From a virus (taxonomy: Duplodnaviria > Heunggongvirae > Uroviricota > Caudoviricetes), in IMG/VR virus record IMGVR_UViG_3300026224_000020, positions 1 to 26,296 of that record: 26,296 nucleotides of DNA; one strand, 5' to 3'. The first letter of the stretch is position 1. Every line of letters begins with the position of its first letter. The translations under genes and the position numbers were made by a program. Positions 1-26,296 of this stretch are shown piece after piece. Under the pieces are notes generated by a model. The model saw nothing but the letters and a program-made list of their open reading frames with translations. It did not search any database and was not told the DNA's origin.

Positions 1-258
1 ATGCAAACCGTTATTTTCGGTCGTCCGGGTTGCCCTTACTGCGTGCGTGCCAAAGATTTGGCAGAAAAGTTAAGTAATGAACACGATGATTTTCACTATC
101 AGTATGTGGATATTCGTACTGAAGGGATCACTAAAGAGGATCTGCAACAGAAAGCTGGCAAGCCGGTAGAAACCGTACCGCAGATTTTTGTCGATCAGCA
201 ACACATCGGTGGCTATACCGATTTTGCTGCCTGGGTGAAAGAGAATCTTGACGCCTGA
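1..258 (+). CDS. grxA: glutaredoxin 1
   Basis: 85-aa ORF with CPYC active-site motif (GRPGCPYCVRA); full-length match to enterobacterial GrxA as recalled; ATG at 1, TGA at 256-258. Confidence 0.93.
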   Translation: MQTVIFGRPGCPYCVRAKDLAEKLSNEHDDFHYQYVDIRTEGITKEDLQQKAGKPVETVPQIFVDQQHIGGYTDFAAWVKENLDA

Positions 259-289
259 TTACCGGATAAGCCCTCTCTGTTTGAGGGCT

Positions 290-667
290 TTATTGATTTT
301 TTCTGTGTTGCGGCCTGAACAAGCTACTGATAAACAAAAAACATAATGCGCCCAGCGCACACCAGAAGACGGCACTCAACAACCACGCCAGCTCCTGCCA
401 GAATGAGCGTGATGGTGAAAAAAACAGACGCATAATTAACATAGAACACGGTGCTGCCAGCATTGCGCCAAACAGTGGTTTAAGGACTTCTCTACGCCGC
501 GAAAAAAAGCTGGCTACAGCCCCAGGAAGAATGAAAAACAGTAAGCCGATTTCAGGGTGCCCGGCAGCCCGAAAAGCTCCCTTCATATGTGTCGCCAGAA
601 AAAGGCACACCACAATAAAGAGGACAAAACAGCAAATTGCCCCCGCCCAATGTTGTTTATGTTTCAC
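290..667 (-). CDS. ybjM: inner membrane protein YbjM
   Basis: 125-aa strongly hydrophobic ORF, same length as E. coli YbjM (from memory) and in the conserved position between grxA and ybjL. Confidence 0.8.
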   Translation of the reverse strand: MKHKQHWAGAICCFVLFIVVCLFLATHMKGAFRAAGHPEIGLLFFILPGAVASFFSRRREVLKPLFGAMLAAPCSMLIMRLFFSPSRSFWQELAWLLSAVFWCALGALCFLFISSLFRPQHRKNQ

Positions 668-935
668 ATGTTCCTCCTGACACTGCCTCTATCGAACACA
701 TTTTTCGCCGGTGTGGCGCTCAGTAAGATAAAGCCGCTTCGCATTCCATGCTAATATAGGCCAACACAATTCTTATAGCCGTTGGTATCTAATGTGATTA
801 CACTAGTAAAATATATTGTTACTTTACTATTGATTAAGTGCGCTGAATGAATCTGCGCTCTGAATTCAGGTAAAAACATTATCTTAAATTACCATTTCTT
901 TCAACAGCTTACTCGTAAACAAGAAGTTAGTCTCC

Positions 936-2621
936 GTGAATATAAACGTCGCCGAATTGTTAAATGGGAATTACATTCTGTTATTATTCGTGGTCCTCGC
1001 GCTTGGACTATGTCTCGGAAAATTACGACTTGGTTCAATCCAACTGGGTAATTCCATTGGCGTTTTAGTCGTATCACTGTTATTAGGTCAACAACATTTC
1101 AGTATTAACACCGACGCGCTTAATCTTGGCTTTATGCTGTTTATTTTCTGCGTCGGGGTCGAAGCCGGACCCAACTTTTTTTCCATTTTTTTCCGCGATG
1201 GGAAAAATTACCTAATGTTAGCCCTGGTAATGGTCGGTAGTGCACTGCTGATCGCCTTAGGACTGGGTAAGTTGTTTGGCTGGGACATCGGCCTGACGGC
1301 CGGTATGTTGGCTGGTTCAATGACATCAACACCGGTTTTGGTTGGTGCGGGCGATACCTTACGCCACTCAGGAATAGAAAGCGGGCAGCTCTCTGCGGCA
1401 CTGGATAATTTAAGCCTCGGGTATGCATTAACCTATTTGATTGGCCTGGTGAGTTTGATTGTCGGTGCGCGTTACTTGCCTAAGTTGCAGCATCAGGACT
1501 TACAAACCAGCGCCCAACAAATCGCTCGTGAACGGGGTCTGGATACCGACGCCAGCCGTAAAGTCTATCTGCCGGTCATTCGCGCCTACCGCGTCGGGCC
1601 GGAACTGGTCGCCTGGGCCGATGGCAAAAACTTGCGCGAACTGGGTATTTATCGACAAACCGGTTGCTACATTGAACGTATTCGTCGTAACGGGATTCTG
1701 GCAAATCCGGATGGTGACGCCGTGCTACAGATGGGCGATGAAATAGCGTTGGTAGGATATCCCGACGCCCACGCCCGACTCGATCCCAGCTTCCGTAACG
1801 GTAAAGAAGTTTTTGATCGAGATCTTCTCGACATGCGTATCGTCACTGAAGAGGTGGTCGTCAAAAACCATAACGCTGTCGGTAAACGCCTGGCACAACT
1901 GAAGCTGACCGATCACGGTTGTTTCCTTAACCGCGTCATCCGCAGCCAGATCGAAATGCCGATCGACGATAACGTGGTGCTTAATAAAGGCGATGTATTG
2001 CAGGTGAGCGGCGATGCCCGTCGCGTGAAAACCATCGCCGATCGCATCGGCTTTATCTCGATTCACAGCCAGGTTACCGATCTACTGGCATTCTGCGCGT
2101 TCTTTGTCATCGGTCTGATGATCGGGATGATCACCTTCCAGTTCAGCACATTCAGCTTCGGCATGGGTAACGCCGCCGGATTGTTATTCGCTGGTATTAT
2201 GCTGGGCTTTATGCGAGCGAACCACCCGACCTTCGGCTATATTCCCCAGGGCGCGTTAAGCATGGTGAAAGAGTTCGGTTTGATGGTATTTATGGCGGGC
2301 GTGGGTTTAAGCGCCGGTAGTGGCATCAATAACGGCCTGGGTGCGATTGGCGGTCAGATGTTGATTGCCGGGTTAATTGTCAGCCTGGTGCCCGTTGTTA
2401 TTTGCTTCCTGTTTGGCGCTTATGTGCTGCGCATGAACCGCGCGCTGTTATTCGGTGCAATGATGGGCGCACGTACTTGTGCTCCGGCAATGGAGATCAT
2501 CAGCGACACTGCGCGCAGCAACATCCCGGCCTTAGGTTATGCGGGCACTTATGCAATAGCTAACGTACTGCTGACGCTGGCAGGGACAATCATCGTAATG
2601 GTATGGCCAGGACTCGGATAA
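936..2621 (+). CDS. ybjL: putative AAE-family transporter YbjL (two membrane domains flanking paired RCK_C/TrkA-C-like soluble domains)
   Basis: 561-aa ORF with hydrophobic N- and C-terminal halves and a central soluble region; length and synteny (ybjL-ybjM-grxA) match E. coli YbjL as recalled. Confidence 0.88.
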
Positions 2622-2724
2622 AACTGAAGTTGCCCCAAAAATGAAATTTTTTTGTACAACCGCAGAACTTTTCCTCGGGGCATCAGTCTTAATTAGTGCC
2701 ACTGCTTTTCTTTGATGTCCCCAT

Positions 2725-2768
2725 TTTGTGGAGCCCATCAACCCCGCCATTTCGGTTCAAGGTTGATG
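2725..2768 (+). terminator. rho-independent terminator downstream of ybjL
   Basis: Perfect 10-bp stem CCCATCAACC ... GGTTGATGGG followed by TTTTTTG on the plus strand; no U-tract on the minus strand. Confidence 0.6.
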
Positions 2769-2856
2769 GGTTTTTTGTTGCCTGAAATTTAAGCTGTTTA
2801 AAATCATGATGTTAGAAGCACTGTTTTTTAACGATGGCGACAAAATGGCGGCAGCG

Positions 2857-8830: not shown

Positions 8831-10003
8831 TTACGCGCTGACCTGGCTGGCAAAATTCACCAGGTACTGATCGGTGATGCGCTGGCGCAGCATCAGATTT
8901 TCAAGTGGCGGCACTGGCGTGTAGTCATAGTCGATGGTGAGTTTTCCGGCTTTCAGCGTGTCTTTGTCGTTCACCGACTCATCCAGCCAGCAATCACCAC
9001 CAATGAGATAGCCTTGACTGACCAGGCTGCGCATTTTGGCGCGGATACCTTCGATAATGTCGCGGGCCAGCGACGGGTTAAGCGGTTTATCCACCGCCCA
9101 CATGTGTGCTTCTGCCATCGTGTCCATCAGCACCTGCGCCGTGCGGGTGTAGTTTTCGAAGGCAAAGAGCGGGTCATCACTCAGGCAGCGGGAACCCCAG
9201 AAGCGGAAACCGTCTTTACGCACAAGTGTGGTGACGTCGTTCTGGTTCAGCAGACCTGCATCGGTTGCCGGGTCCTGCAGATCCCAGAACACATCTGCAG
9301 AAATTCCGGTGACACCGTTCACGCCCACGTTGGACAGGCTTTTGTGCCACCCGGTCTGCTCATCAATTTTGGCACGCAGACCAAGCGCACGGGCGGTGGC
9401 ATATGCCGTTGCTTCGGCATTCAGCACCGTGTCCCAGCCAGTAAAGTCAGGCCAGATCAGCATTCCTTCGCGCTGGCTGAAATTTTCACGGTAAGTGATC
9501 GCCTCCTGTACCGTCTTGCAGCCATACGCTGACAGGTAGGCAAACCCACGCAGGCTTTGCGCCACACTCAGCAACTCAGTAGCAACGGCTTTGTTATCGT
9601 GACCTGGCACGCCGAGAATGCGCGGTTTAACGCCGAGCTGTGTCTGGGCAGATAACAGGGCTTTCATGCCTGTTTTTTTACCTTCAGCAGTCACTGCGCC
9701 GATGATATTGGTCGTGGTTTCTTCTTCCGTTTCACCCTGCGGCACACGCACAACAACGGTCACGGGTTTTGCCTGGTCAGCGATGGCATCCAGCGAACGG
9801 GCCAGCGTGCCGGACTCACCCGCTTTACCGCTGGCAGTCAGCACGTCAGTGATCAGTACAGGTTTATTAAGAGGAAACATTTTTGCATCGGCATCATCGC
9901 CCGTGCAGACCATACCCACGATGGCGGTGCTCACCGTGGTAATGGATCGGGTGCCTTCGTTGACTTCAACAACGCGCACCCCGTGGTGGTAATCCTGAGC
10001 CAT
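8831..10003 (-). CDS. FI: contractile tail sheath protein FI
   Basis: 390-aa ORF immediately upstream of FII; size and position match P2 FI. Confidence 0.88.
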
Positions 10004-10078
10004 AGTGGCGAACCTCCTGATTGGATTAGGCTTCGCCCTATGTTGTATTGATTACGCCATGCAGACAGCTGATGTGCG

Positions 10079-10098
10079 TTGTACGGTTAATCACACAA
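10079..10098 (-). promoter_or_regulatory. candidate Ogr-binding element (TTGT-N12-ACAA) of the FI-operon late promoter
   Basis: ttgtACGGTTAATCACacaa about 80 bp upstream of the FI start codon; matches the TGT-N12-ACA late-promoter element recalled for P2/P4/186. Confidence 0.4.
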
Positions 10099-10195
10099 CG
10101 TCGCAGGAAATTTTCGGAACGGCGTTGATAACTAAAAACGTTGTTCTGGGATAGGGGGCACTTTACAGGACGGGAATTAATACTCGTTTTAAAAG

Positions 10196-10230
10196 GCTTC
10201 GTCGGTTGACGAGAGCCTTTTTTGCTTTTA
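10196..10230 (-). terminator. putative terminator after the acyltransferase cargo gene
   Basis: Imperfect hairpin GGCTTCGTC-ggttgac-GAGAGCC flanked by T-runs on both strands, directly after the stop at 10232. Confidence 0.4.
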
Positions 10231-10231
10231 C

Positions 10232-11242
10232 TTAAATATTTTGATTCTGATAAGCCTGCGTTATTCTTTTCATAAGCTTATGTCTGAACGATTCCAAGGG
10301 AGATTCAATGCAATGATAGGCAATAGCCCCACCGCCAATACATAAAGCTATAGTAACTAAGTATGCAGTAACATTATCCAAAAATTTAGGATAAACAATA
10401 AAAATTATCATTATATGAAACAAATAAATTGAAAAACTATATTTCCCCAAATCCGCCATGATTTTTGAAGATAAAACCGCGCTTACATACCCACTGGAAT
10501 TTACTTGCAGATATACAAAGAGAGCAATAAATGGCCCCAATACCACAAATTTATTACCCAGCCAACCATTAGCCCCCTGAAAAGGAGGGGTCAACATTAT
10601 AAATATTAATATAATCGCAATTGACACCCCATCACTAACGAGAGATGATATTTTAATTTGAAAATAGTTATACATAAACGCAATTATAATTCCATACATA
10701 AAAACAGGAATGTAATACGGTAGCCTACCGTTGATTTCGTCATCCGTATAAGGGTATATAAAAGCGAACGCTAAGGTTAACAATATCAAAAACAACAAAG
10801 AATATTTTCTACCTGCAACTTTCTGGATACTAGATGCGAGATAAACCACAATCGGCAACAAAAAGTAAAACTTGAATTCTATCGGAATAGTCCAGAGATG
10901 GATGTAAGTACTATCAAATGAAATTATCGATTTCATTTTCTCTAAATCATAAAATCCCATAAGGTAATAAATTAATACTGCAATATAAAAAATCGGTAAT
11001 ATCCTTATTGTTCGCCCTAAAAGATAACTCAACACATTCAAAAACGAAAAACCAGAATTAATAAATTTATGTGTCAACAAAAAGGCGCTAAGAACAAAAA
11101 ACAACCAAACACCGGGCTGCCCCGTACCTCCGAGATGATCATGAAGTGAGGGAAAGAATAGTCCCGTAGAATGCATCACCACAACAATCATCAAAGCGAA
11201 ACCTCTCACGCCATCGGCAGAACGTATTTTATTCTCTTTCAT
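10232..11242 (-). CDS. acyltransferase family 3 membrane protein (putative O-antigen/surface polysaccharide O-acetyltransferase), prophage cargo
   Basis: Polytopic hydrophobic protein whose N-terminus (MKENKIRSADGVRGFALMIVVVMHS) fits the acyltransferase-3 R-x10-H signature; start placed at the internal Met (track ORF runs to 11320); visibly AT-rich, in the Z/fun moron slot. Confidence 0.8.
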   Translation of the reverse strand: MKENKIRSADGVRGFALMIVVVMHSTGLFFPSLHDHLGGTGQPGVWLFFVLSAFLLTHKFINSGFSFLNVLSYLLGRTIRILPIFYIAVLIYYLMGFYDLEKMKSIISFDSTYIHLWTIPIEFKFYFLLPIVVYLASSIQKVAGRKYSLLFLILLTLAFAFIYPYTDDEINGRLPYYIPVFMYGIIIAFMYNYFQIKISSLVSDGVSIAIILIFIMLTPPFQGANGWLGNKFVVLGPFIALFVYLQVNSSGYVSAVLSSKIMADLGKYSFSIYLFHIMIIFIVYPKFLDNVTAYLVTIALCIGGGAIAYHCIESPLESFRHKLMKRITQAYQNQNI

Positions 11243-11369
11243 ATTGATTTTTTTATTAAAAAACGGGAATCTAATATTATCACAGAAACAGACAACAAAC
11301 AGCCTCCCCCTCGTATTCATACCATATAGGCAGTGTGGGGGAGGATGATACTAACCATTTAATTCTCAG

Positions 11370-11966
11370 TCACTCGGGCTTCCTCGGCCACGTTATATCT
11401 GGCGCAGTTGACGTGTCTACCAACTGCACCGCTTTGATGTAATTCATCCAGGTGATTAGTCTGACTTTATCTTCATCACTGATAATTCCTAATTGTAGTT
11501 CTGTCTGCCATAGATTGATTGTTAGCTGAGCCTTTGCCAGAAGCTCCGCTTTCTTCTGATCAGCAGTTTCCACGTCAACCTCGTGCTGCATCTCGGTATC
11601 TGTCACCCATGCACTACCGTTCCACTTATCGTATGGTGTAGCAGGAGGTAGTTTCGTAGTTTTTTCTGGGTAATCGCCGAGCACTGTTACAGCTATTTTT
11701 TTGCCAGTTTCGGTGCTGTAAACAGTCTCACCTCGATGATCAGCAATATATTCCCACGCGGTAAGATCCTTAGTCCGGCAAATGGTTAACCCTTTTTTAC
11801 TTTTACCCGGCATATCAATGCATGAATTAGCAGGAATCCCAACCCCTACAGCAAGAAATTCAACACTAGAAGAAAGATATTCACGAGTTTCAATATCAAA
11901 GTTAAACACCGTTATATTGCCAGATTCCACAGCTATAAACTCATTATTTAGTTTCGCTTCTGTCAT
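11370..11966 (-). CDS. G: tail fiber assembly protein
   Basis: 198-aa ORF immediately downstream of H with TAATG stop/start overlap; position matches P2 gpG. Confidence 0.85.
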   Translation of the reverse strand: MTEAKLNNEFIAVESGNITVFNFDIETREYLSSSVEFLAVGVGIPANSCIDMPGKSKKGLTICRTKDLTAWEYIADHRGETVYSTETGKKIAVTVLGDYPEKTTKLPPATPYDKWNGSAWVTDTEMQHEVDVETADQKKAELLAKAQLTINLWQTELQLGIISDEDKVRLITWMNYIKAVQLVDTSTAPDITWPRKPE

Positions 11967-13393
11967 TATGCTGCTCTCACAATGTAATTAAATGAAATAT
12001 TCCGTGGACGTGTTTCTGCCGCTGTTCGTGTTATCGTACTTGAATCTAAGTGAGCCTGTTTATATTGTGAGATGCTTGTTGCCTGTGTAACAATACCGTC
12101 TCCGCTTTCACGATCTATACCCGTAAAAGCTCCATCAGCATAAGTAAACATACCGTTTGTACCATAGCCAATGGAGCCGATAATCGGCTGCATAGCATCA
12201 GTCTGAGACGTTAGAACCTGACGTCCAGCGTCTACGCCACGCCCATCGTCCCAGCCGCGAATAAACTCACTGCGTAGATCTGGTAATTTTAATGACGGAT
12301 AAACCTGCGCCAGTTTCGGATATTGCGAGGAACTGAATGATGCTCCATTACACTTCAACCAACCTTCCGGCGGTATTGCAGTAGGCCACGGAACAGGAAC
12401 ACCGACTGGCAACGCACTGCCCTCCCCAAGATGAAGGTTTTTTAGAAAAGCAGAAACATCGGCAATATCAGCGCCATTAGCTGCTTTGTTCATTTTTCCC
12501 GCCAGCGCACTCATTACTGTTGTCGCAAAGTTAGGATCATTCCCCAGCGCAGCAGCCAATTCATTTAACGTATCCAGCGCCTCCGGCGATGAACCGACCA
12601 TCTCGGCAACTGCCGCTTTCACAAATGCCGTGGTGGCAATCTGCGTATTGTTCGCCGTCTGCGCTGCAGTCGGAGCCGTCGGCGTTCCGGTCAGGGCCGG
12701 ACTTGCCAGTGGAGCTTTCAACGCCAGTGCGTTATTTAGCGCAGTGACCACCGCCTGCACAAATGCCGTGCTAGCAATCTGAGTCGTGTTAGTTCCCGCC
12801 GGTGCTGTTGGCGTTTTCGGCGTGCCAGTCAATGTTGGGCTGTCTTTGGGCGCATACTGCGTATGAGGATCTGCAGCAGCAAGATGCTTTGCCATCAGGT
12901 CATCCACATACACCTTAAGCTCAAGCACCTTGTCATCCACATACTTGCGGGTTGCCAGCACCACTGAAGGGTCAATTTTCAGTGTGATATTATCGGTACT
13001 GCTGGTAATCAGCACCATCCGTACGGTCTGGGTACGCCCGCTGCCTTCAGCCAGTTGCGGTTTATAGCTTTCCGGGCAGTTGCCCACGGCAATCAATGCC
13101 CCTGACTCATCAAACAGGCCCACTTCACGTATCCACCAACCGCCCTCGTTTTCAGGGATCACCTGTTCAGCAATAATCTGGCTGCTGTTCTGCGGGTCGA
13201 TATAGAGCATATTCAGCGCAGCCCGGCGTTTCTCATTTACCAGTGCAGTCTGCTTTGCGTCCGGCGTCGGCAATGCTCCGCCGCCATCGCCCACCGCCAT
13301 ATGGGTAATTTTTAGCGGCACACCGAGCGCGGCGGCGCTGGCAAGTTTCGCCGCGCCAATATCCGTCAGCAGGGTATAAAATTTTGTGCTCAT
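11966..13393 (-). CDS. H: tail fiber protein
   Basis: 475-aa ORF with conserved P2 H-like N-terminus (MSTKFYTLLTDIGAAKLA...) and internal repeats (SPTLTGTPKTPTAP... / SPALTGTPTAPTAA...); C-terminal part diverged. Confidence 0.88.
   Translation of the reverse strand: MSTKFYTLLTDIGAAKLASAAALGVPLKITHMAVGDGGGALPTPDAKQTALVNEKRRAALNMLYIDPQNSSQIIAEQVIPENEGGWWIREVGLFDESGALIAVGNCPESYKPQLAEGSGRTQTVRMVLITSSTDNITLKIDPSVVLATRKYVDDKVLELKVYVDDLMAKHLAAADPHTQYAPKDSPTLTGTPKTPTAPAGTNTTQIASTAFVQAVVTALNNALALKAPLASPALTGTPTAPTAAQTANNTQIATTAFVKAAVAEMVGSSPEALDTLNELAAALGNDPNFATTVMSALAGKMNKAANGADIADVSAFLKNLHLGEGSALPVGVPVPWPTAIPPEGWLKCNGASFSSSQYPKLAQVYPSLKLPDLRSEFIRGWDDGRGVDAGRQVLTSQTDAMQPIIGSIGYGTNGMFTYADGAFTGIDRESGDGIVTQATSISQYKQAHLDSSTITRTAAETRPRNISFNYIVRAA
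12608..12847 (-). repeat. tandem degenerate repeat inside tail fiber gene H
   Basis: Two roughly 35-aa units (KDSPTLTGTPKTPTAPAGTNTTQIASTAFVQAVV / LASPALTGTPTAPTAAQTANNTQIATTAFVKAAV) also visible as DNA repeats. Confidence 0.7.
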
Positions 13394-21835: not shown

Positions 21836-23602
21836 ATGAACACCACACTGACACCCGCAGATCTCGATCCCCGTCGGCAGGCCATGCTGCTGTACTTTCA
21901 GGGATACCGCGTAGCCCGCATTGCTGAAATGCTGGGCGAGAAAGTTGCAACCGTTCACAGCTGGAAAAAACGCGACAAGTGGGGTGACTATGGGCCGCTG
22001 GATCAGATGCAGCTCACCACCGCCGCACGCTACTGCCAGCTCATTATGAAGGAGCACAAAGAAGGGAAAGATTTCAAAGAGATTGACCTGCTGGCGCGCC
22101 AGTCGGAGCGCCATGCGCGGATCGGCAAGTTTAACAATGGCGGCAACGAAGCCGACTTAAACCCTAACGTCGCCAACCGCAACAAAGGCCCGCGCCGTCA
22201 GCCGGAAAAGAACGTTTTCACCGATGAACAGATTGAGAAGCTGGAAGAAATCTTCCATTCCTCCATGTTCAACTACCAGCGCCACTGGTGGGAAGCCGGA
22301 AAAACCAACCGCATCCGCAACCTGCTGAAGTCACGCCAGATCGGCGCGACCTTCTATTTTGCCCGTGAAGCCCTGATTGACGCCCTGCTAACCGGGCGTA
22401 ACCAGATTTTCCTTTCCGCCAGCAAGGCTCAGGCCCACGTCTTTAAGCAGTACATCATCGACTTCGCCAAAGAAGTGGAGGTGGAGCTGAAAGGCGATCC
22501 GATGGTGCTTCCTAACGGGGCCACGCTGTACTTCCTCGGCACCAATGCCCGCACGGCCCAGAGTTACCACGGCAACCTGTATCTGGATGAATATTTCTGG
22601 ATACCGAAATTCCAGGAGCTGCGCAAAGTGGCTTCCGGTATGGCTATTCACAAAAAATGGCGACAAACCTATTTTTCCACGCCATCCAGCCTGACACACA
22701 GTGCTTATCCGTTCTGGTCCGGTGCGCTGTTCAACCGAGGGCGCAACAAAGCCGATAAGGTGGACATCGACCTGTCCCACAGCAATCTGGCCCCCGGCCT
22801 GCTGTGCGCAGACGGGCAGTACCGCCAGATAGTCACTGTGGAAGATGCGGTGCGCGGCGGCTGTAACCTGTTCGACCTCGACCAGTTGCGCATGGAGTAC
22901 AGCCCGGACGAATACCAGAACCTGCTGATGTGTGAGTTCGTGGACGATCTCGCGTCTGTGTTCCCACTCAGCGAGCTGCAGGCGTGCATGGTGGACAGTT
23001 GGGAAGTCTGGACCGACTTTCATGCACTGGCCCTGCGCCCGTTTGGCTGGCGCGAAGTGTGGATCGGATATGACCCGGCGAAAGGTACGCAGAACGGCGA
23101 CAGCGCCGGATGCGTGGTGGTGGCGCCGCCAGCCGTGCCGGGCGGTAAGTTCCGCATTCTTGAGCGTCACCAGTGGCGCGGAATGGACTTCCGCGCCCAG
23201 GCTGACGCCATCAAAAAACTGACCGAACAGTACAACGTGACCTATATCGGTATCGACTCAACCGGCGTTGGTCACGGGGTTTACGAGAACGTGAAAGCGT
23301 TTTTTCCTGCCGTCCGGGAGTTTGTCTACAACCCCAACGTTAAAAACGCCCTGGTACTCAAGGCCTACGACATTATCAGCCACCGCCGTCTGGAGTTTGA
23401 CGCCGGACACACCGACATAGCGCAGTCCTTTATGGCAATCCGTCGAGCCACCACCGCCAGTGGCAACCGCCCGACCTATGAAGCCAGCCGCAGCGAAGAA
23501 GCCAGCCACGCCGATCTGGCCTGGGCAACGATGCACGCACTGTTTAACGAACCGCTGCAGGGCGAATCCGCCAATACCAGCAATATTGTGGAGATTTTTT
23601 GA
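21836..23602 (+). CDS. P: terminase large (ATPase) subunit P
   Basis: 588-aa ORF divergent from O; size and position match P2 gpP. Confidence 0.9.
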   Translation: MNTTLTPADLDPRRQAMLLYFQGYRVARIAEMLGEKVATVHSWKKRDKWGDYGPLDQMQLTTAARYCQLIMKEHKEGKDFKEIDLLARQSERHARIGKFNNGGNEADLNPNVANRNKGPRRQPEKNVFTDEQIEKLEEIFHSSMFNYQRHWWEAGKTNRIRNLLKSRQIGATFYFAREALIDALLTGRNQIFLSASKAQAHVFKQYIIDFAKEVEVELKGDPMVLPNGATLYFLGTNARTAQSYHGNLYLDEYFWIPKFQELRKVASGMAIHKKWRQTYFSTPSSLTHSAYPFWSGALFNRGRNKADKVDIDLSHSNLAPGLLCADGQYRQIVTVEDAVRGGCNLFDLDQLRMEYSPDEYQNLLMCEFVDDLASVFPLSELQACMVDSWEVWTDFHALALRPFGWREVWIGYDPAKGTQNGDSAGCVVVAPPAVPGGKFRILERHQWRGMDFRAQADAIKKLTEQYNVTYIGIDSTGVGHGVYENVKAFFPAVREFVYNPNVKNALVLKAYDIISHRRLEFDAGHTDIAQSFMAIRRATTASGNRPTYEASRSEEASHADLAWATMHALFNEPLQGESANTSNIVEIF

Positions 23603-24636
23603 TGGGAAAGAGTAAGAAGAACCGCGCTGCGGCGACGAAACAGATCCAGCTTAAAAGTCAAACTACAGCCGAAGCATTCAGCTTCGGCGATCCCGTTCCT
23701 GTTCTGGACCGCCGAGAACTGCTGGATTATGTGGAATGCGTACAGATGGACCGCTGGTATGAGCCGCCCGTCAGCTTTGACGGACTGGCGCGCACCTTCC
23801 GCGCTGCCGTTCATCATAGTTCCCCGATTGCAGTAAAGTGCAACATTCTGACCAGCACCTACATCCCTCACCCGCTGCTCAGCCAGCAGGCTTTTTCGCG
23901 TTTTGTGCAGGACTATCTGGTATTTGGTAACGCCTACCTGGAGAAACGCACGAACCGCTTCGGTGAAGTTATCGCCCTTGAACCTGCCTTGGCAAAATAC
24001 ACCCGACGCGGGTTAGACCTGGATACCTACTGGTTTGTGCAATACGGTATGACCACGCAGCCATATCAGTTCACGAAAGGCAGCATCTTTCATCTGATGG
24101 AACCGGACATCAACCAGGAGATCTACGGCCTGCCCGGTTATCTTTCTGCTATTCCATCCGCCCTGCTCAACGAGTCTGCCACGCTGTTCCGCCGCAAGTA
24201 TTACATTAACGGCAGTCATGCAGGCTTCATCATGTATATGACCGACGCCGCGCAGAACCAGGAAGATGTGAACAACCTCCGCAACGCGATGAAAAGCGCC
24301 AAAGGCCCTGGCAACTTCCGCAACCTGTTTATGTACTCGCCTAACGGCAAAAAGGACGGGCTTCAGATCATCCCGTTGTCAGAAGTCGCAGCGAAAGATG
24401 AATTTCTGAACATCAAGAACGTGAGCCGAGACGACATGATGGCTGCACACCGCGTACCGCCTCAGATGATGGGAATTTTGCCGAATAATGTTGGGGGGTT
24501 TGGGGATGTGGAGAAGGCAAGTCGGGTATTTGTTCGTAATGAATTAATACCTTTGCAAAAACGTTTCGAAGAATTAAATTTATGGCTAAAAAATAATATT
24601 ATTACATTCAAAGAATATCAACTATCCCTAGACTAA
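23599..24636 (+). CDS. Q: portal protein Q (3' end AT-rich, apparently mosaic)
   Basis: 345-aa ORF overlapping the P stop; size matches P2 gpQ; the last roughly 30 codons are visibly AT-rich, unlike the rest of the gene. Confidence 0.88.
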   Translation: MMGKSKKNRAAATKQIQLKSQTTAEAFSFGDPVPVLDRRELLDYVECVQMDRWYEPPVSFDGLARTFRAAVHHSSPIAVKCNILTSTYIPHPLLSQQAFSRFVQDYLVFGNAYLEKRTNRFGEVIALEPALAKYTRRGLDLDTYWFVQYGMTTQPYQFTKGSIFHLMEPDINQEIYGLPGYLSAIPSALLNESATLFRRKYYINGSHAGFIMYMTDAAQNQEDVNNLRNAMKSAKGPGNFRNLFMYSPNGKKDGLQIIPLSEVAAKDEFLNIKNVSRDDMMAAHRVPPQMMGILPNNVGGFGDVEKASRVFVRNELIPLQKRFEELNLWLKNNIITFKEYQLSLD

Positions 24637-24640
24637 TTAA

Positions 24641-24663
24641 TAACCACCTCTATGAGGTGGTTA
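24641..24663. terminator. perfect hairpin between convergent Q and cargo gene (possible bidirectional terminator)
   Basis: TAACCACCTC-tat-GAGGTGGTTA, 10-bp perfect stem with 3-nt loop; only weak T-rich tracts flank it. Confidence 0.4.
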
Positions 24664-24683
24664 ACAAGAATAAACCTAATTAA

Positions 24684-26093
24684 TTACTCATCTACTCTGA
24701 TTTTTTGTTTTTTATTATTTTGAGTTAAGACATTTATGGTAATAGATGTATACGGATGAAAGTCAGGCACTATACTTTTAACCTCTCCATTTTCAAGAAA
24801 ATGATGTGCTATTGAAGGAAATAAATCAGGATCTACAGGATATTTAGCATTAGGATTATGATACATATTTAAACCTTCTGCCCATGTTTCTGTAATATCG
24901 CCTTCTTTCACTTCAAAACTAAATGCTGCTGGATATAATGCCTCTGGGTCATGATCATGGCAGTAACCACTCCTAAATAATCTAAGGTCACTTCTTCCAA
25001 AACCAGCCAGTTTTCCCATCCGATTAAACTTCGATATAGTACCACTATTAGAACTAAGGACGGCCGAAATATTTTCAGACTCATCCAAGAAGAAAAAGCC
25101 TGAAGGAATTTCCTTTTTCTCAAATTGATGCGATATAATTTTCTTAGTTGCTAAACTGTAACATCCATCTTCAGATTTAACATGCTCATAGCGAATACCA
25201 TAAAGATACTGCCAAAGTGCACTATGGGACCAAATCATAGAGTTTGGTTCATGAAAATCAGCAATTGCGAAAATTAAAGGATTCCCCTTAACATGTTCTA
25301 GATCCCAGTATCGAGTTTTCTTTTTCAGTTTAGAATAGAGAGAACTTCCAAATTTAATCGGCATATAATTCTCTATTTTCTCTAGCAATTCTTCCTTACT
25401 TTTAGGTTCAGATAGCATTTCAGATGATTGATTAATATCATTCCCTGTTGGATTAACCGTTACAGCTTCAATGCAAATAGTATTACCATACTTACGTGCC
25501 ACATAATCAGGGGCATTAAACTGCCTATCTAGCCAAAAGTGTTCCTCTCGTAAATATGCGAAAAGATATAACTCCCATAGCCGGGCATCAAAACCTGTTG
25601 TCTGAAACTGCTCTATAAAATTCCCGTCGACATCCTCAAAATGATTCATCATTTCCTTGATTATCCCTGTTGCAGGCGACCAGTTCGCGTATTTACCAAA
25701 TAATGAAAAATGATGATGAAGTTTATCTAGTGTAACTATAGGTGTGAATAAATCCATTGCTTTATAAGTTTCATCACCTTGTGGAAATACTTTTACGTTT
25801 AATTTAGTATGCTTCCGCATTAATTTCTTTAGTTTTGCTCGTGCAGAATTCATTTCTGAAACACTAGTAAATAGGTCAATACATCTATATCTCCCACTTA
25901 AGTCTCTTGCTAAAACAATACCGCTATAATCTTCATCGATTTGATCCAATAATAGTGCCCCTAGCAGGAACTCTCTCGGACTACAGTACCACTCAAACTC
26001 ATAACCTAAAAGTTCAGTATTTGGCATTCTGGTCCAATCAACAAAAGCATTAAACCTCTCTTTACTCATTTTTTTTATATCAAGAAAAGACAT
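24684..26093 (-). CDS. hypothetical 469-aa protein, AT-rich cargo in the P2 tin/old variable slot; candidate single-gene anti-phage defense or exclusion protein
   Basis: Long uninterrupted ORF in AT-rich DNA where stops are frequent; GAGGT RBS about 8 nt upstream of the ATG at 26093; no Walker A or other motif I can confidently recognise; convergent with Q. Confidence 0.82.
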   Translation of the reverse strand: MSFLDIKKMSKERFNAFVDWTRMPNTELLGYEFEWYCSPREFLLGALLLDQIDEDYSGIVLARDLSGRYRCIDLFTSVSEMNSARAKLKKLMRKHTKLNVKVFPQGDETYKAMDLFTPIVTLDKLHHHFSLFGKYANWSPATGIIKEMMNHFEDVDGNFIEQFQTTGFDARLWELYLFAYLREEHFWLDRQFNAPDYVARKYGNTICIEAVTVNPTGNDINQSSEMLSEPKSKEELLEKIENYMPIKFGSSLYSKLKKKTRYWDLEHVKGNPLIFAIADFHEPNSMIWSHSALWQYLYGIRYEHVKSEDGCYSLATKKIISHQFEKKEIPSGFFFLDESENISAVLSSNSGTISKFNRMGKLAGFGRSDLRLFRSGYCHDHDPEALYPAAFSFEVKEGDITETWAEGLNMYHNPNAKYPVDPDLFPSIAHHFLENGEVKSIVPDFHPYTSITINVLTQNNKKQKIRVDE

Positions 26094-26171
26094 CTTTCTA
26101 CCTCATCACGAAAAAATATTTTTTCCTAAAAAGACTTAAGTTAGCTTAATCTATTGATAAAAAAAAGCTAA

Positions 26172-26296
26172 GGAAGGTGCGAACAAGTTCCTGATATGAG
26201 ATCATCATATTCATCCGGAGCGCATCCCAGAGGGACATCATGAGCCATCAACTCACCTTCGCCGATAGTGAATTCAGCACTAAGCGCCGTCAGACC
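26172..26296 (+). mobile_element. IS5-like insertion sequence, left end (continues beyond window)
   Basis: Terminal inverted repeat GGAAGGTGCGAACAAG at 26172 preceded by CTAA (IS5 YTAR target); following sequence closely resembles the IS5 left end as recalled. Confidence 0.8.
26240..26296 (+). CDS. insH: IS5-family transposase, N-terminal fragment (truncated by window end)
   Basis: ATG at 26240; translation MSHQLTFADSEFSTKRRQT matches the IS5 InsH N-terminus (MSHQLTFADSEFSSKRRQT as recalled). Confidence 0.8.
   Translation, partial: MSHQLTFADSEFSTKRRQT

What the first reader, a model, noticed from the sequence alone, without database searches (positions are those of the whole stretch)
24470..24636. 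Portal gene Q has an AT-rich, apparently recombinant 3' end and no recognisable cos between Q and the cargo gene
Seen in sequence: base composition of Q drops abruptly from about 24480-24540 onward (final codons ...NELIPLQKRFEELNLWLKNNIITFKEYQLSLD in A/T-rich codons), and only 47 bp containing a hairpin separate the Q stop from the convergent cargo gene. Established knowledge (from memory): P2 cos lies within about 100 bp of the Q 3' end and is GC-rich with a GGCGAGGCGGGGAAAGCAC-like core; no such sequence is visible here. Inference: the cargo was acquired by recombination inside the 3' end of Q, and cos may have been displaced or lost, which would affect packaging.
Basis: partly seen in the sequence, partly recalled or inferred. 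Interest (0 to 1): 0.5.

Follow-up and report, generated by a model that had tools for sequence, protein, structure and literature searches.

The report
Portal gene tail swapped with cargo
The last ~50 codons of this P2-like prophage's portal gene travel with the neighbouring anti-phage gene as one exchangeable cassette in an already known hotspot next to the DNA-packaging site (cos), and in sibling prophages cos lies just beyond the cassette, past the point where an insertion sequence and the window end cut off the view here.

Summary
GC falls from 0.53 to 0.34 at about 24527, and the last 100 nt of Q are 23% GC (z = -7). A 47-nt spacer holds a 10-bp hairpin. No P2-type cos occurs anywhere in the window.

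Recombination inside the 3' end of Q is supported:
- A relative with a different cargo (L016) matches the window through Q up to 24473.
- A relative with the same cargo (L006) differs through Q up to 24492 and is identical afterwards.
- In 78 related loci with 48 cargo types, the Q tail goes with the cargo: 98% identity for the same cargo against 55% for different cargos, while Q bodies stay about 93% identical.

This is a lineage-wide property of a known hotspot, not a one-off event. P2, 186 and an "empty" relative have GC-normal tails, a terminator and about 165 bp to cos.

"Cos displaced or lost" is mostly wrong. In this Elveevirus-like lineage the cargo normally sits between Q and cos. In E. 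coli S88 (99.8% identical here) the cos core lies 20 nt beyond the point where an IS5-family element is inserted in the window. The window ends inside that IS, so cos in this genome could not be seen.

The cargo is PD-T7-1, a known defence gene. The finding is ordinary, with a tidy fine-scale anatomy.

The parts
23602..24473 (+). Body of portal gene Q. The ATG at 23602 overlaps the P stop; the whole gene 23602-24636 encodes 344 aa. This is the conserved part, shared with relatives that carry other cargos.
   Evidence: Pfam Phage_portal, E 4e-18. Nucleotide diversity among 79 unique relatives is 0.02-0.13. L016, which carries a different cargo, shows a single mismatch between 24300 and 24473, at 24429, the site where L004-L007 also differ from the window.
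24474..24492 (+). Recombination junction of this particular prophage: the interval that brackets the crossover between the Q body and the cargo-linked tail.
   Evidence: Mismatches to L016 (other cargo) begin at 24474. Mismatches to L006 (same cargo, different Q body, 42 differences) stop at 24492. Across the family, crossovers concentrate in 24360-24545.
24493..24636 (+). Cargo-linked, AT-rich 3' tail of Q, about 47 codons plus the stop. Amino acids are still conserved up to about 24561 and variable after that.
   Evidence: Identical in all PD-T7-1 carriers. Synonymous differences between tail alleles are saturated (pS 0.80-0.82 against 0.26 in the body), and pN rises to 0.34. For the last 22-29 codons (from 24562), identity is 0.98 for the same cargo and 0.55 for different cargos. 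The GC change point is 24527.
24641..24663 (.). Hairpin between the convergent Q and cargo genes (TAACCACCTC tat GAGGTGGTTA). Probably a transcription barrier belonging to the cassette. It lacks the U-run of a canonical intrinsic terminator.
   Evidence: Folding of 24630-24690: dG -16.4 (+ strand) and -18.9 (- strand), z about -4. The consensus terminator scan did not call it. 55 of 58 different cassettes have their own, unrelated hairpin in the 90 nt after the Q stop.
24684..26093 (-). Cargo gene: a PD-T7-1 single-gene anti-phage defence protein, 469 aa, GC about 0.35.
   Evidence: PADLOC PDLC04073 PD-T7-1, E 3.5e-196, covering residues 7-457 of 469. No Pfam domain. The cassette stretch 24400-26172 is 98.9-99.9% identical in 25 complete E. 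coli genomes, where the cargo gene is annotated as a hypothetical protein.
26094..26171 (-). AT-rich region upstream of the cargo gene (presumed promoter region), ending at the IS target ctaa (26168-26171). It is part of the cassette.
   Evidence: Colinear with E. coli S88 up to the IS junction. No consensus promoter was called here, so the promoter assignment is an inference.
26172..26296 (+). End of an IS5-family element (ISKpn26-like): terminal repeat ggaaggtgcgaacaag and the start of the transposase gene. It runs to the window end and is inserted 20 nt before the place where relatives have the cos core.
   Evidence: 100% identical over window 26170-26296 to copies annotated as IS5-like ISKpn26 family transposase, multicopy in 1842 E. 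coli genomes. The same junction is present in ENA contig L169. S88 has no IS there, and its cos core is at L004 5793-5811.

Best explanation
The window holds an Elveevirus-like (P2-family) prophage. One exchangeable cos-proximal cargo cassette spans the last ~145 nt of portal gene Q, the hairpin spacer, the PD-T7-1 defence gene and its upstream region. In relatives without the IS, the cassette runs to 7 bp before the cos core.

Cassettes of this kind move between related phages by homologous recombination. One crossover falls in the 3' third of Q; here it lies between 24474 and 24492. The other falls in or beyond the conserved cos block.

The codons closest to the cargo are almost never separated from it. 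They therefore form old, deeply diverged alleles that share the AT-rich composition of the cargo, while still encoding the conserved helix pattern of a working portal C-terminus.

Cos has not been lost from the lineage. It lies on the far side of the cargo, so the cargo sits at the extreme left end of the virion DNA. In this genome an IS5-family element sits 20 nt short of that position, and the window stops inside it.

Shown: the linkage, the mosaic junctions, the position of cos in siblings, and the identity of the cargo and the IS. Inferred: that exchange is by homologous recombination, that the hairpin acts as a terminator, that the 19-nt core is the real cohesive end in this lineage, and that cos is still present behind the IS.
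For: Lineage and gene order:
- Q is 94.7% identical in DNA to Elveevirus Cartapus, whose record reads cos (1-59), cargo (162-860), portal (869-1903).
- S88 has the same cassette with the cos core 1556 bp after the Q stop.
- The cos core is found 162-3498 bp after the Q stop in 78 of 84 relatives.
- Homology on the cos side starts sharply at -7 from the core and runs about 143 bp towards dinI/A.

Linkage:
- 48 cargo clusters occur among 78 loci. Tail identity is 0.98 for the same cargo and 0.55 (maximum 0.73) for different cargos. Q-body identity between different-cargo pairs averages 0.93 and reaches 0.996.

Mosaics:
- L016, L006 and L007 give junctions against the window.

Old alleles under purifying selection:
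- pS is saturated from 24502 onwards while pN/pS stays below 1. The conserved pattern is VFVRNEL.PLQK....N.W......F..Y.

Natural control:
- In 75 P2-lineage loci the variable cargo (53 clusters) lies on the A side of cos. There the Q tail is invariant (diversity 0.024, GC 0.50) and cos is 156-170 bp from the Q stop.

Ancestral state:
- P2, 186 and the empty locus L033 have GC-normal tails, a canonical terminator and a spacer of about 165 bp.
- Tail GC correlates with cargo GC, r = 0.57, p = 2e-6.

Cargo and literature:
- The cargo is PD-T7-1.
- The literature names the gpA-gpQ / cosL-Q position as a hotspot.
Against: - The far side of the IS could not be seen. Junction searches in three collections found nothing, so the presence of cos in this genome is unproven.
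- No donor carrying this tail allele on a distant Q body was found. The best phage match to the tail is about 70% identical.
- Why the tail is AT-rich is unresolved: imported with AT-rich DNA, or long-term AT drift in a segment that no longer recombines.
- Linkage is not absolute. L026 has the tail and hairpin of L008 but different DNA from 80 nt after the stop. L022 and L030 share a cargo but differ in the first half of the tail.
- The loci come from IMG/VR and are all at least 93% identical in Q, so the sample is one lineage.
- The cohesive ends have not been mapped experimentally for this lineage.
Confidence: 0.85

Rival explanations
1. The prophage is packaging-defective. Cos was deleted or separated by an IS5-mediated rearrangement, which is the stronger reading of the first reader's idea.
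For: No cos core occurs anywhere in the 26.3-kb window. An IS5-family element sits exactly at the cos-proximal edge of the cassette. Every public contig found with this junction also ends inside the IS. IS copies can mediate deletions.
Against: The window simply ends 125 nt into the IS. In siblings the cos core starts 20 nt beyond the insertion point, and the conserved cos block starts 13 nt beyond it. A simple insertion would therefore leave the family-conserved cos block, which begins 7 bp before the core, untouched (for the published 55-bp core). Contigs ending in a multicopy IS are the expected short-read assembly artefact. All late genes in the window appear as full-length ORFs.
Confidence: 0.2
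2. The AT-rich tail arose in place, by relaxed selection and AT-biased mutation at the dispensable C-terminus of Q, without any exchange by recombination.
For: The tails are homologous to the P2 and 186 tails, have the same length class (339-349 aa proteins), and keep the conserved hydrophobic and aromatic positions. Divergence rises as a gradient rather than a step.
Against: Identical tails sit on clearly different Q bodies: L006 has 42 differences and L007 has 31. Near-identical bodies carry unrelated tails (L016). In the P2 lineage, where the cargo is on the other side of cos, the same C-terminus is invariant, so the tail is not intrinsically fast-evolving. AT drift may still explain the composition of old alleles, so this rival fails only as the sole explanation.
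Confidence: 0.08
3. Tail variation is functional. Each portal C-terminus is co-adapted to the defence gene next to it (for example to avoid self-targeting), or is diversified to escape portal-sensing immunity.
For: Tail and cargo associate almost one to one, and amino-acid change is elevated in the tail (pN 0.34).
Against: 48 unrelated cargos of different kinds show the same linkage, which physical proximity explains. pN/pS stays below 1 with saturated pS. P2-lineage portals carry equally diverse defence cargos on the other side of cos with an invariant tail. L026 shows that a tail can be reused with another cargo.
Confidence: 0.04

Closest known systems
Cos-proximal hotspot of P2-like phages, between replication gene A and portal gene Q (Rousset et al. 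2022, PMC9122126; Vassallo et al. 2022, PMC9519451; NAR 2026, PMC13586616)
   Same: Same position, the same kind of AT-rich single-gene or few-gene defence cargo, and the same very high turnover: 48 cargo types in 78 loci here. The cargo itself (PD-T7-1) comes from the Vassallo screen.
   Different: Those papers define the hotspot at gene level (gpA to gpQ). In the passages I searched for 'cos site', 'portal', 'gpQ', 'breakpoint', 'C-terminal' and 'flanking', I found no statement on which side of cos the cargo lies, nor that the end of gpQ belongs to the variable part. Here cos splits the hotspot into a Q-side slot (this lineage) and an A-side slot (P2 lineage).
Retrons Ec67/Ec86 replacing DNA between cos and a transcription terminator of a 186-related prophage (Dodd & Egan 1996), and the cosL-Q slot of phiCTX and phiRSY1 (Nakayama 1999; cited in PMC5694545)
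   Same: Foreign DNA sits between the portal gene and cos. Phage 4LV2017 of this lineage carries a retron there.
   Different: By its title, that replacement is bounded by the terminator after the portal gene. Here the replaced segment reaches about 145 nt into the portal gene, so each cassette brings its own Q tail and its own hairpin. I could not read the 1996 paper, which is not held.
P2 old/tin (TO) region
   Same: Lysogenic-conversion and defence cargo next to cos, AT-rich, with its own promoter.
   Different: It lies on the other side of cos. P2 keeps a constant 167-nt Q-cos spacer with terminator tQ and an invariant, GC-normal Q tail.
P2/P4/186 cos site with its 55-bp conserved core (Ziermann & Calendar 1990, as cited in PMC9594776 and PMC5694545)
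   Same: The sibling prophages' core GGCGTGGCGGGGATACGAG shares its first 13 nt with 186 (GGCGTGGCGGGGAAAGCAT). The flanking GCGCGC is also shared.
   Different: The last 6 nt of the core differ. The core is not in the window. Cleavage has not been shown for this lineage.

Membership tests
P2-like cos-proximal (gpA-gpQ) cargo hotspot | Lies between portal gene Q and replication gene A, next to cos | tested here: met
   The Q side is seen in the window. In S88, which carries the same cassette, the order is Q, cargo, cos core, dinI-like, hypothetical, A. The A side of this genome lies outside the window.
P2-like cos-proximal (gpA-gpQ) cargo hotspot | Gene content varies between otherwise collinear, closely related phages | tested here: met
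   48 cargo clusters in 78 loci whose Q bodies are about 93% identical in DNA.
P2-like cos-proximal (gpA-gpQ) cargo hotspot | Cargo is an anti-phage or lysogenic-conversion function | tested here: met
   Full-length PADLOC match to PD-T7-1, E 3.5e-196. Defence activity is known for the family from PMC9519451 and was not tested for this copy.
PD-T7-1 defence system | Single protein matching the PD-T7-1 profile over its whole length | tested here: met
   Residues 7-457 of 469 match profile positions 2-449 of 452, 650 bits. A weaker match to the related PD-T7-5 is also found.
PD-T7-1 defence system | Protects against phage infection | not testable with these tools
   Needs plaque assays.
P2-type cos site | 19-nt GC-rich core related to the P2/186 cohesive ends, inside a conserved block of about 55 bp | tested here: not met
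   Absent from the window. Present with 0-1 mismatch in 78 relatives, and 20 nt beyond the IS insertion point in S88.
P2-type cos site | Cut by terminase to give 19-nt 5' cohesive ends | not testable with these tools
   Needs sequencing of virion DNA ends.
Rho-independent terminator (analogue of P2 tQ / 186 tW) | GC-rich stem-loop directly after the gene | tested here: met
   10-bp stem at 24641-24663, starting 5 nt after the Q stop. Folding of 24630-24690 gives dG -16.4, z -4.1.
Rho-independent terminator (analogue of P2 tQ / 186 tW) | Run of U immediately after the stem | tested here: not met
   The stem is followed by ACAAGAAT on the + strand and TTAATTAG on the - strand. The scan did not call it. 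P2, 186 and L033 do have the T-run.
IS5 family insertion sequence | Terminal inverted repeat GGAAGGTGCG..., transposase gene, insertion at a CTAA-type target | tested here: met
   The IS starts at 26172 after ctaa. It is 100% identical to annotated IS5-like ISKpn26 family copies. In L169 a DDE_Tnp_1 transposase follows. Only 125 nt lie in the window, and the far end and target duplication were not seen.

The most novel reading that the evidence does not exclude
The portal C-terminus may be more than a passive passenger. Each tail allele could be matched to the defence cassette it travels with, for instance letting the resident phage's own portal escape recognition by its cargo. Alternatively, the cos end itself could drive cassette exchange: a terminase-made DNA end next to the cargo would need only one crossover in Q. 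Either reading would be a specific mechanism for shuffling defence genes among P2-like phages and the P4 satellites that share cos.
Probability: 0.06. Interest if true: 0.65.

Novelty: already known. Interest (0 to 1): 0.25.

Why it matters
It matters little as a discovery. The hotspot, the cargo and the phage lineage are all known, and the same cassette is present at 99-99.9% identity in 25 complete E. coli genomes.

The fine-scale picture has practical uses:
- In this lineage cos must be looked for beyond the cargo, up to 3.5 kb from Q, and not right after Q.
- Hotspot boundaries drawn at gene level miss the fact that the last ~50 codons of the portal gene belong to the cassette. Portal trees and recombination analyses should leave those codons out.
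- The mapped crossovers in Q, together with the razor-sharp edge 7 bp from the cos core, are direct sequence evidence for flank-homology exchange of defence cassettes. The recent literature discusses that mechanism only as a possibility.
- The conserved cos requirement on the Q side is at most 7 bp.

Tried and rejected
- **P2 cos core and lineage cos core in the window:** absent.
- **Locating the source genome or the far IS junction:** exact-match searches for the near junction in genome contigs and viral contigs, and for the predicted far junction in genome contigs, viral contigs and metagenome contigs, found nothing. No complete E. coli genome has the IS at this place. Look-up by the exact PD-T7-1 protein found one ENA contig (L169) with the same junction, but it also ends inside the IS.
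- **Chi site:** I looked for GCTGGTGG as a way to focus RecBCD crossovers in Q. There is none in the window, so the idea was dropped.
- **Donor of the tail allele:** a protein search with the last 64 aa returned only short fragments of 63-112 aa and was uninformative. A tblastn of the tail against 50,697 phage records gave at best about 70% identity, no closer to any one genus.
- **Solved portal structure to place the tail:** no PDB relative by sequence. I ran no further search on building an alignment for structure prediction, because the answer would not change the verdict.
- **Hairpin as a canonical terminator:** not called by the scan, and it has no U-run.
- **Odegrip et al. 2006:** not held in the library.
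- **First MAFFT run:** timed out and was replaced by anchor-based ungapped comparison.

Full report
**What is in the window**

On the + strand, the large terminase gene P (21836-23602) is followed by portal gene Q (23602-24636, 344 aa, Pfam Phage_portal). A 47-nt spacer comes next. After it lies a convergent 469-aa ORF (24684-26093, - strand), then 78 AT-rich bases, and then the end of an insertion sequence that runs to the last base of the window.

Q is 94.7% identical in DNA to Escherichia phage Cartapus and about 90% identical to Klebsiella phage 4LV2017. Both are Peduoviridae of the genus Elveevirus. The host flank at the other end of the window (grxA, ybjM, ybjL) is only 91% identical to E. 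coli, so the host is probably another Escherichia species.

**Check of the observation**

The composition shift is real and strong.
- GC in 100-nt windows goes from 0.51 to 0.32 to 0.26 between 24400 and 24650.
- A two-segment likelihood fit puts the change at 24527 (support 24514-24539), with GC 0.534 before and 0.335 after.
- The last 100 nt of Q are 23% GC, lower than any of 1862 windows of the late-gene region (z = -7). GC3 drops from 0.5-0.75 to 0.15.

The spacer is 47 nt and contains a 10-bp hairpin at 24641-24663; folding of 24630-24690 gives dG -16.4 kcal/mol, z -4.1. The P2 cos core is absent from the whole window even with three mismatches. The remembered "about 100 bp" is really 167 nt in P2 and 176 nt in 186.

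**Where cos is**

The Cartapus record starts at an annotated cos and then lists a cargo gene (162-860) before the portal gene (869-1903). The cargo therefore lies between cos and Q.

The core of this lineage, GGCGTGGCGGGGATACGAG, shares its first 13 nt with the 186 end. It is also absent from the window. E. coli S88 is 99.8% identical to window 24400-26172 and has no IS there. In S88 the core sits 1556 bp after the Q stop, only 20 nt past the point where the IS is inserted in the window.

In 84 related loci (80 from IMG/VR plus four fetched records), the core is present with 0-1 mismatch in 78, at 162-3498 bp after the Q stop. Five of the other six are cut short or interrupted. The sixth, L068, has 2.1 kb of unique DNA after Q with no core.

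Anchoring all loci on the core shows a very sharp edge. Everything up to 8-10 nt before the core is unalignable, with diversity about 0.7. From -7 onwards, about 143 bp towards dinI/A are conserved.

In the P2 lineage the picture is mirrored. There the Q-side spacer is conserved, and variability starts 25-50 nt past the core on the A side. The part conserved in both lineages is therefore about 50-60 bp around the core. That agrees with the 55-bp core of Ziermann and Calendar as cited in PMC9594776 and PMC5694545.

**The Q tail belongs to the cargo**

Among 79 unique relatives, nucleotide diversity changes along Q as follows:

| Interval | Nucleotide diversity |
|---|---|
| Q body | 0.02-0.13 |
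| 24502-24531 | 0.20 |
| 24532-24561 | 0.27 |
| 24562-24591 | 0.41 |
| 24592-24621 | 0.45 |
| beyond the stop | about 0.7 |

Mean GC of all sequences falls in parallel, from 0.50 to 0.38 to 0.28.

I clustered the DNA between the Q stop and cos into 48 cargo types among 78 loci. The last 22-29 codons of Q are 98% identical within a cargo type. Between types they are 55% identical (maximum 73%), while Q bodies of different-cargo pairs are 93% identical on average and up to 99.6%.

Synonymous differences between tail alleles are saturated from 24502 onwards (pS 0.80-0.82, against 0.26 in the body). Non-synonymous differences rise only after about 24561 (pN 0.085, then 0.34), and pN/pS stays below 1. 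The pattern VFVRNEL.PLQK....N.W......F..Y is kept. These are old alleles of a functional C-terminus, not decayed or foreign sequence.

**Junctions for this prophage**

- L016 carries another cargo. It shows a single mismatch to the window between 24300 and 24473, at 24429, where L004-L007 also differ from the window. It diverges from 24474 onwards.
- L006 carries the same PD-T7-1 cargo. It differs at 42 positions of Q up to 24492 and at none after that.
- L007 has the same cargo and differs only up to 24039.

Over all pairs, junctions fall between 23688 and 24543, mostly in 24360-24545.

Linkage is not absolute. L022 and L030 share a cargo but differ in the first half of the tail. L026 has the tail and hairpin of L008 and then different DNA from 80 nt after the stop.

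**Ancestral state and a natural control**

P2 Q and 186 W are each 61% identical in protein to the window Q. Both end with GC-normal tails (0.50-0.53), a canonical terminator (tQ, tW) and a spacer of 167-176 nt to cos. The one "empty" locus of the window's own lineage, L033, looks the same: tail GC 0.48, a terminator with a T-run, and 162 nt to cos.

In 75 P2-lineage loci, the DNA on the A side of cos falls into 53 clusters. Yet the last 150 nt of Q have a diversity of only 0.024, and cos stays 156-170 nt from the stop. Two loci, L128 and L153, have extra DNA inserted after tQ.

The portal tail is therefore variable and AT-rich only where the cargo abuts it. Tail GC correlates with cargo GC (r = 0.57, p = 2e-6).

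**Cargo, hairpin and IS**

The cargo protein matches PADLOC PD-T7-1 over its full length (E 3.5e-196) and has no Pfam domain. PD-T7-1 is one of the defence systems recovered by functional selection from E. coli. Several of those systems lie in this P2 hotspot (PMC9519451).

In 55 of 58 distinct cassettes there is a stable hairpin within 90 nt after the Q stop, and the sequence differs from cassette to cassette. Many are flanked by A and T runs like bidirectional terminators. The one in the window lacks the U-run, and the scan did not call it. I take it to be the cassette's own transcription barrier between the convergent genes. That is an inference.

The IS is an IS5-family (ISKpn26-like) element inserted after ctaa at 26168-26171. 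The identical junction occurs in an ENA metagenome contig, which also ends inside the IS. The insertion point is 13 nt outside the conserved cos block, so a simple insertion should leave cos intact and add about 1.2 kb to the genome. Whether that is the case here could not be determined. IS hits in this slot recur: IS1 interrupts L010, and IS1 splits the PD-T7-1 gene in two E. coli genomes.

**Comparison with what is known**

A hotspot between gpA and gpQ next to cos is well documented (Rousset 2022; Vassallo 2022; NAR 2026). The cosL-Q position was already called a pick-up site for foreign genes in the 1990s. The examples are Dodd and Egan 1996, on retrons replacing DNA between cos and a terminator in a 186-related prophage, and Nakayama 1999, both as cited in PMC5694545.

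The papers I could read work at gene level. In the passages I searched for 'cos site', 'portal', 'gpQ', 'breakpoint', 'C-terminal' and 'flanking', I found no statement that the end of the portal gene is part of the variable segment. I also found none saying that cos divides the hotspot into two lineage-specific slots. I could not read the older papers, so I do not claim these details are new.

**Verdict**

The inference of recombination inside Q is correct, but it describes the ordinary behaviour of a known hotspot. The inference that cos was displaced or lost is not supported for the lineage and cannot be tested for this genome from the window. Novelty: already known. Interest is low to moderate.

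Noticed in passing
window 26172-26296 (target ctaa at 26168-26171): An IS5-family (ISKpn26-like) element is inserted in the cassette's cos-proximal edge, 79 nt upstream of the PD-T7-1 start codon and 20 nt short of where siblings have the cos core. The window ends inside it. It may affect cargo expression and adds about 1.2 kb to the phage genome. The same junction is in ENA contig L169.
   Followed up: partly
window 10000-12000; ORF 10232-11320 (-): A second AT-rich island (GC 0.33-0.43) lies between the tail sheath gene and the tail-fibre genes, which is the Z/fun hotspot position. It encodes a 362-aa Acyl_transf_3 family acyltransferase (Pfam E 9e-27) with no PADLOC hit. It is a likely lysogenic-conversion cargo, for example surface polysaccharide acylation.
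   Followed up: partly
window 1-2800: The host flank (grxA, ybjM, ybjL) is only about 91% identical to all 5419 matching E. coli genomes. The host is therefore probably a non-coli Escherichia species, although the prophage cassette is 99.8% identical to E. coli copies.
   Followed up: partly
L026 (from 80 nt after its Q stop) compared with L008: Both have the same Q tail and the same post-Q hairpin but completely different DNA afterwards. This is a cargo exchange with its left junction after the hairpin rather than inside Q, so the two kinds of junction coexist.
   Followed up: partly
L128 and L153 (P2-lineage loci): Two of 79 P2-type loci carry 1.4 and 1.9 kb of AT-rich DNA between terminator tQ and cos, with the Q tail and tQ kept. 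The Q-side slot is therefore occasionally used in the P2 lineage too.
   Followed up: no
L010 (700 nt after its Q stop); E. coli strains 33-6 and 58-3 (hits H54, H55): IS1 insertions occur in the same cos-proximal cassette region. In the two E. coli genomes IS1 splits the PD-T7-1 gene. IS hits in this AT-rich slot recur, although a recent survey calls transposable elements almost nonexistent in these phages.
   Followed up: no
L167 5033-5710 and L168 3347-4024: Some PD-T7-1-carrying prophages have an extra 225-aa ORF with no Pfam hit between dinI and cos, on the A side of cos. The A-side slot therefore also varies within this lineage.
   Followed up: no
window 24429: This is the only base in Q at which the window differs from the fetched relatives with the same cassette (L004-L007). 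It is a third-codon-position change.
   Followed up: no
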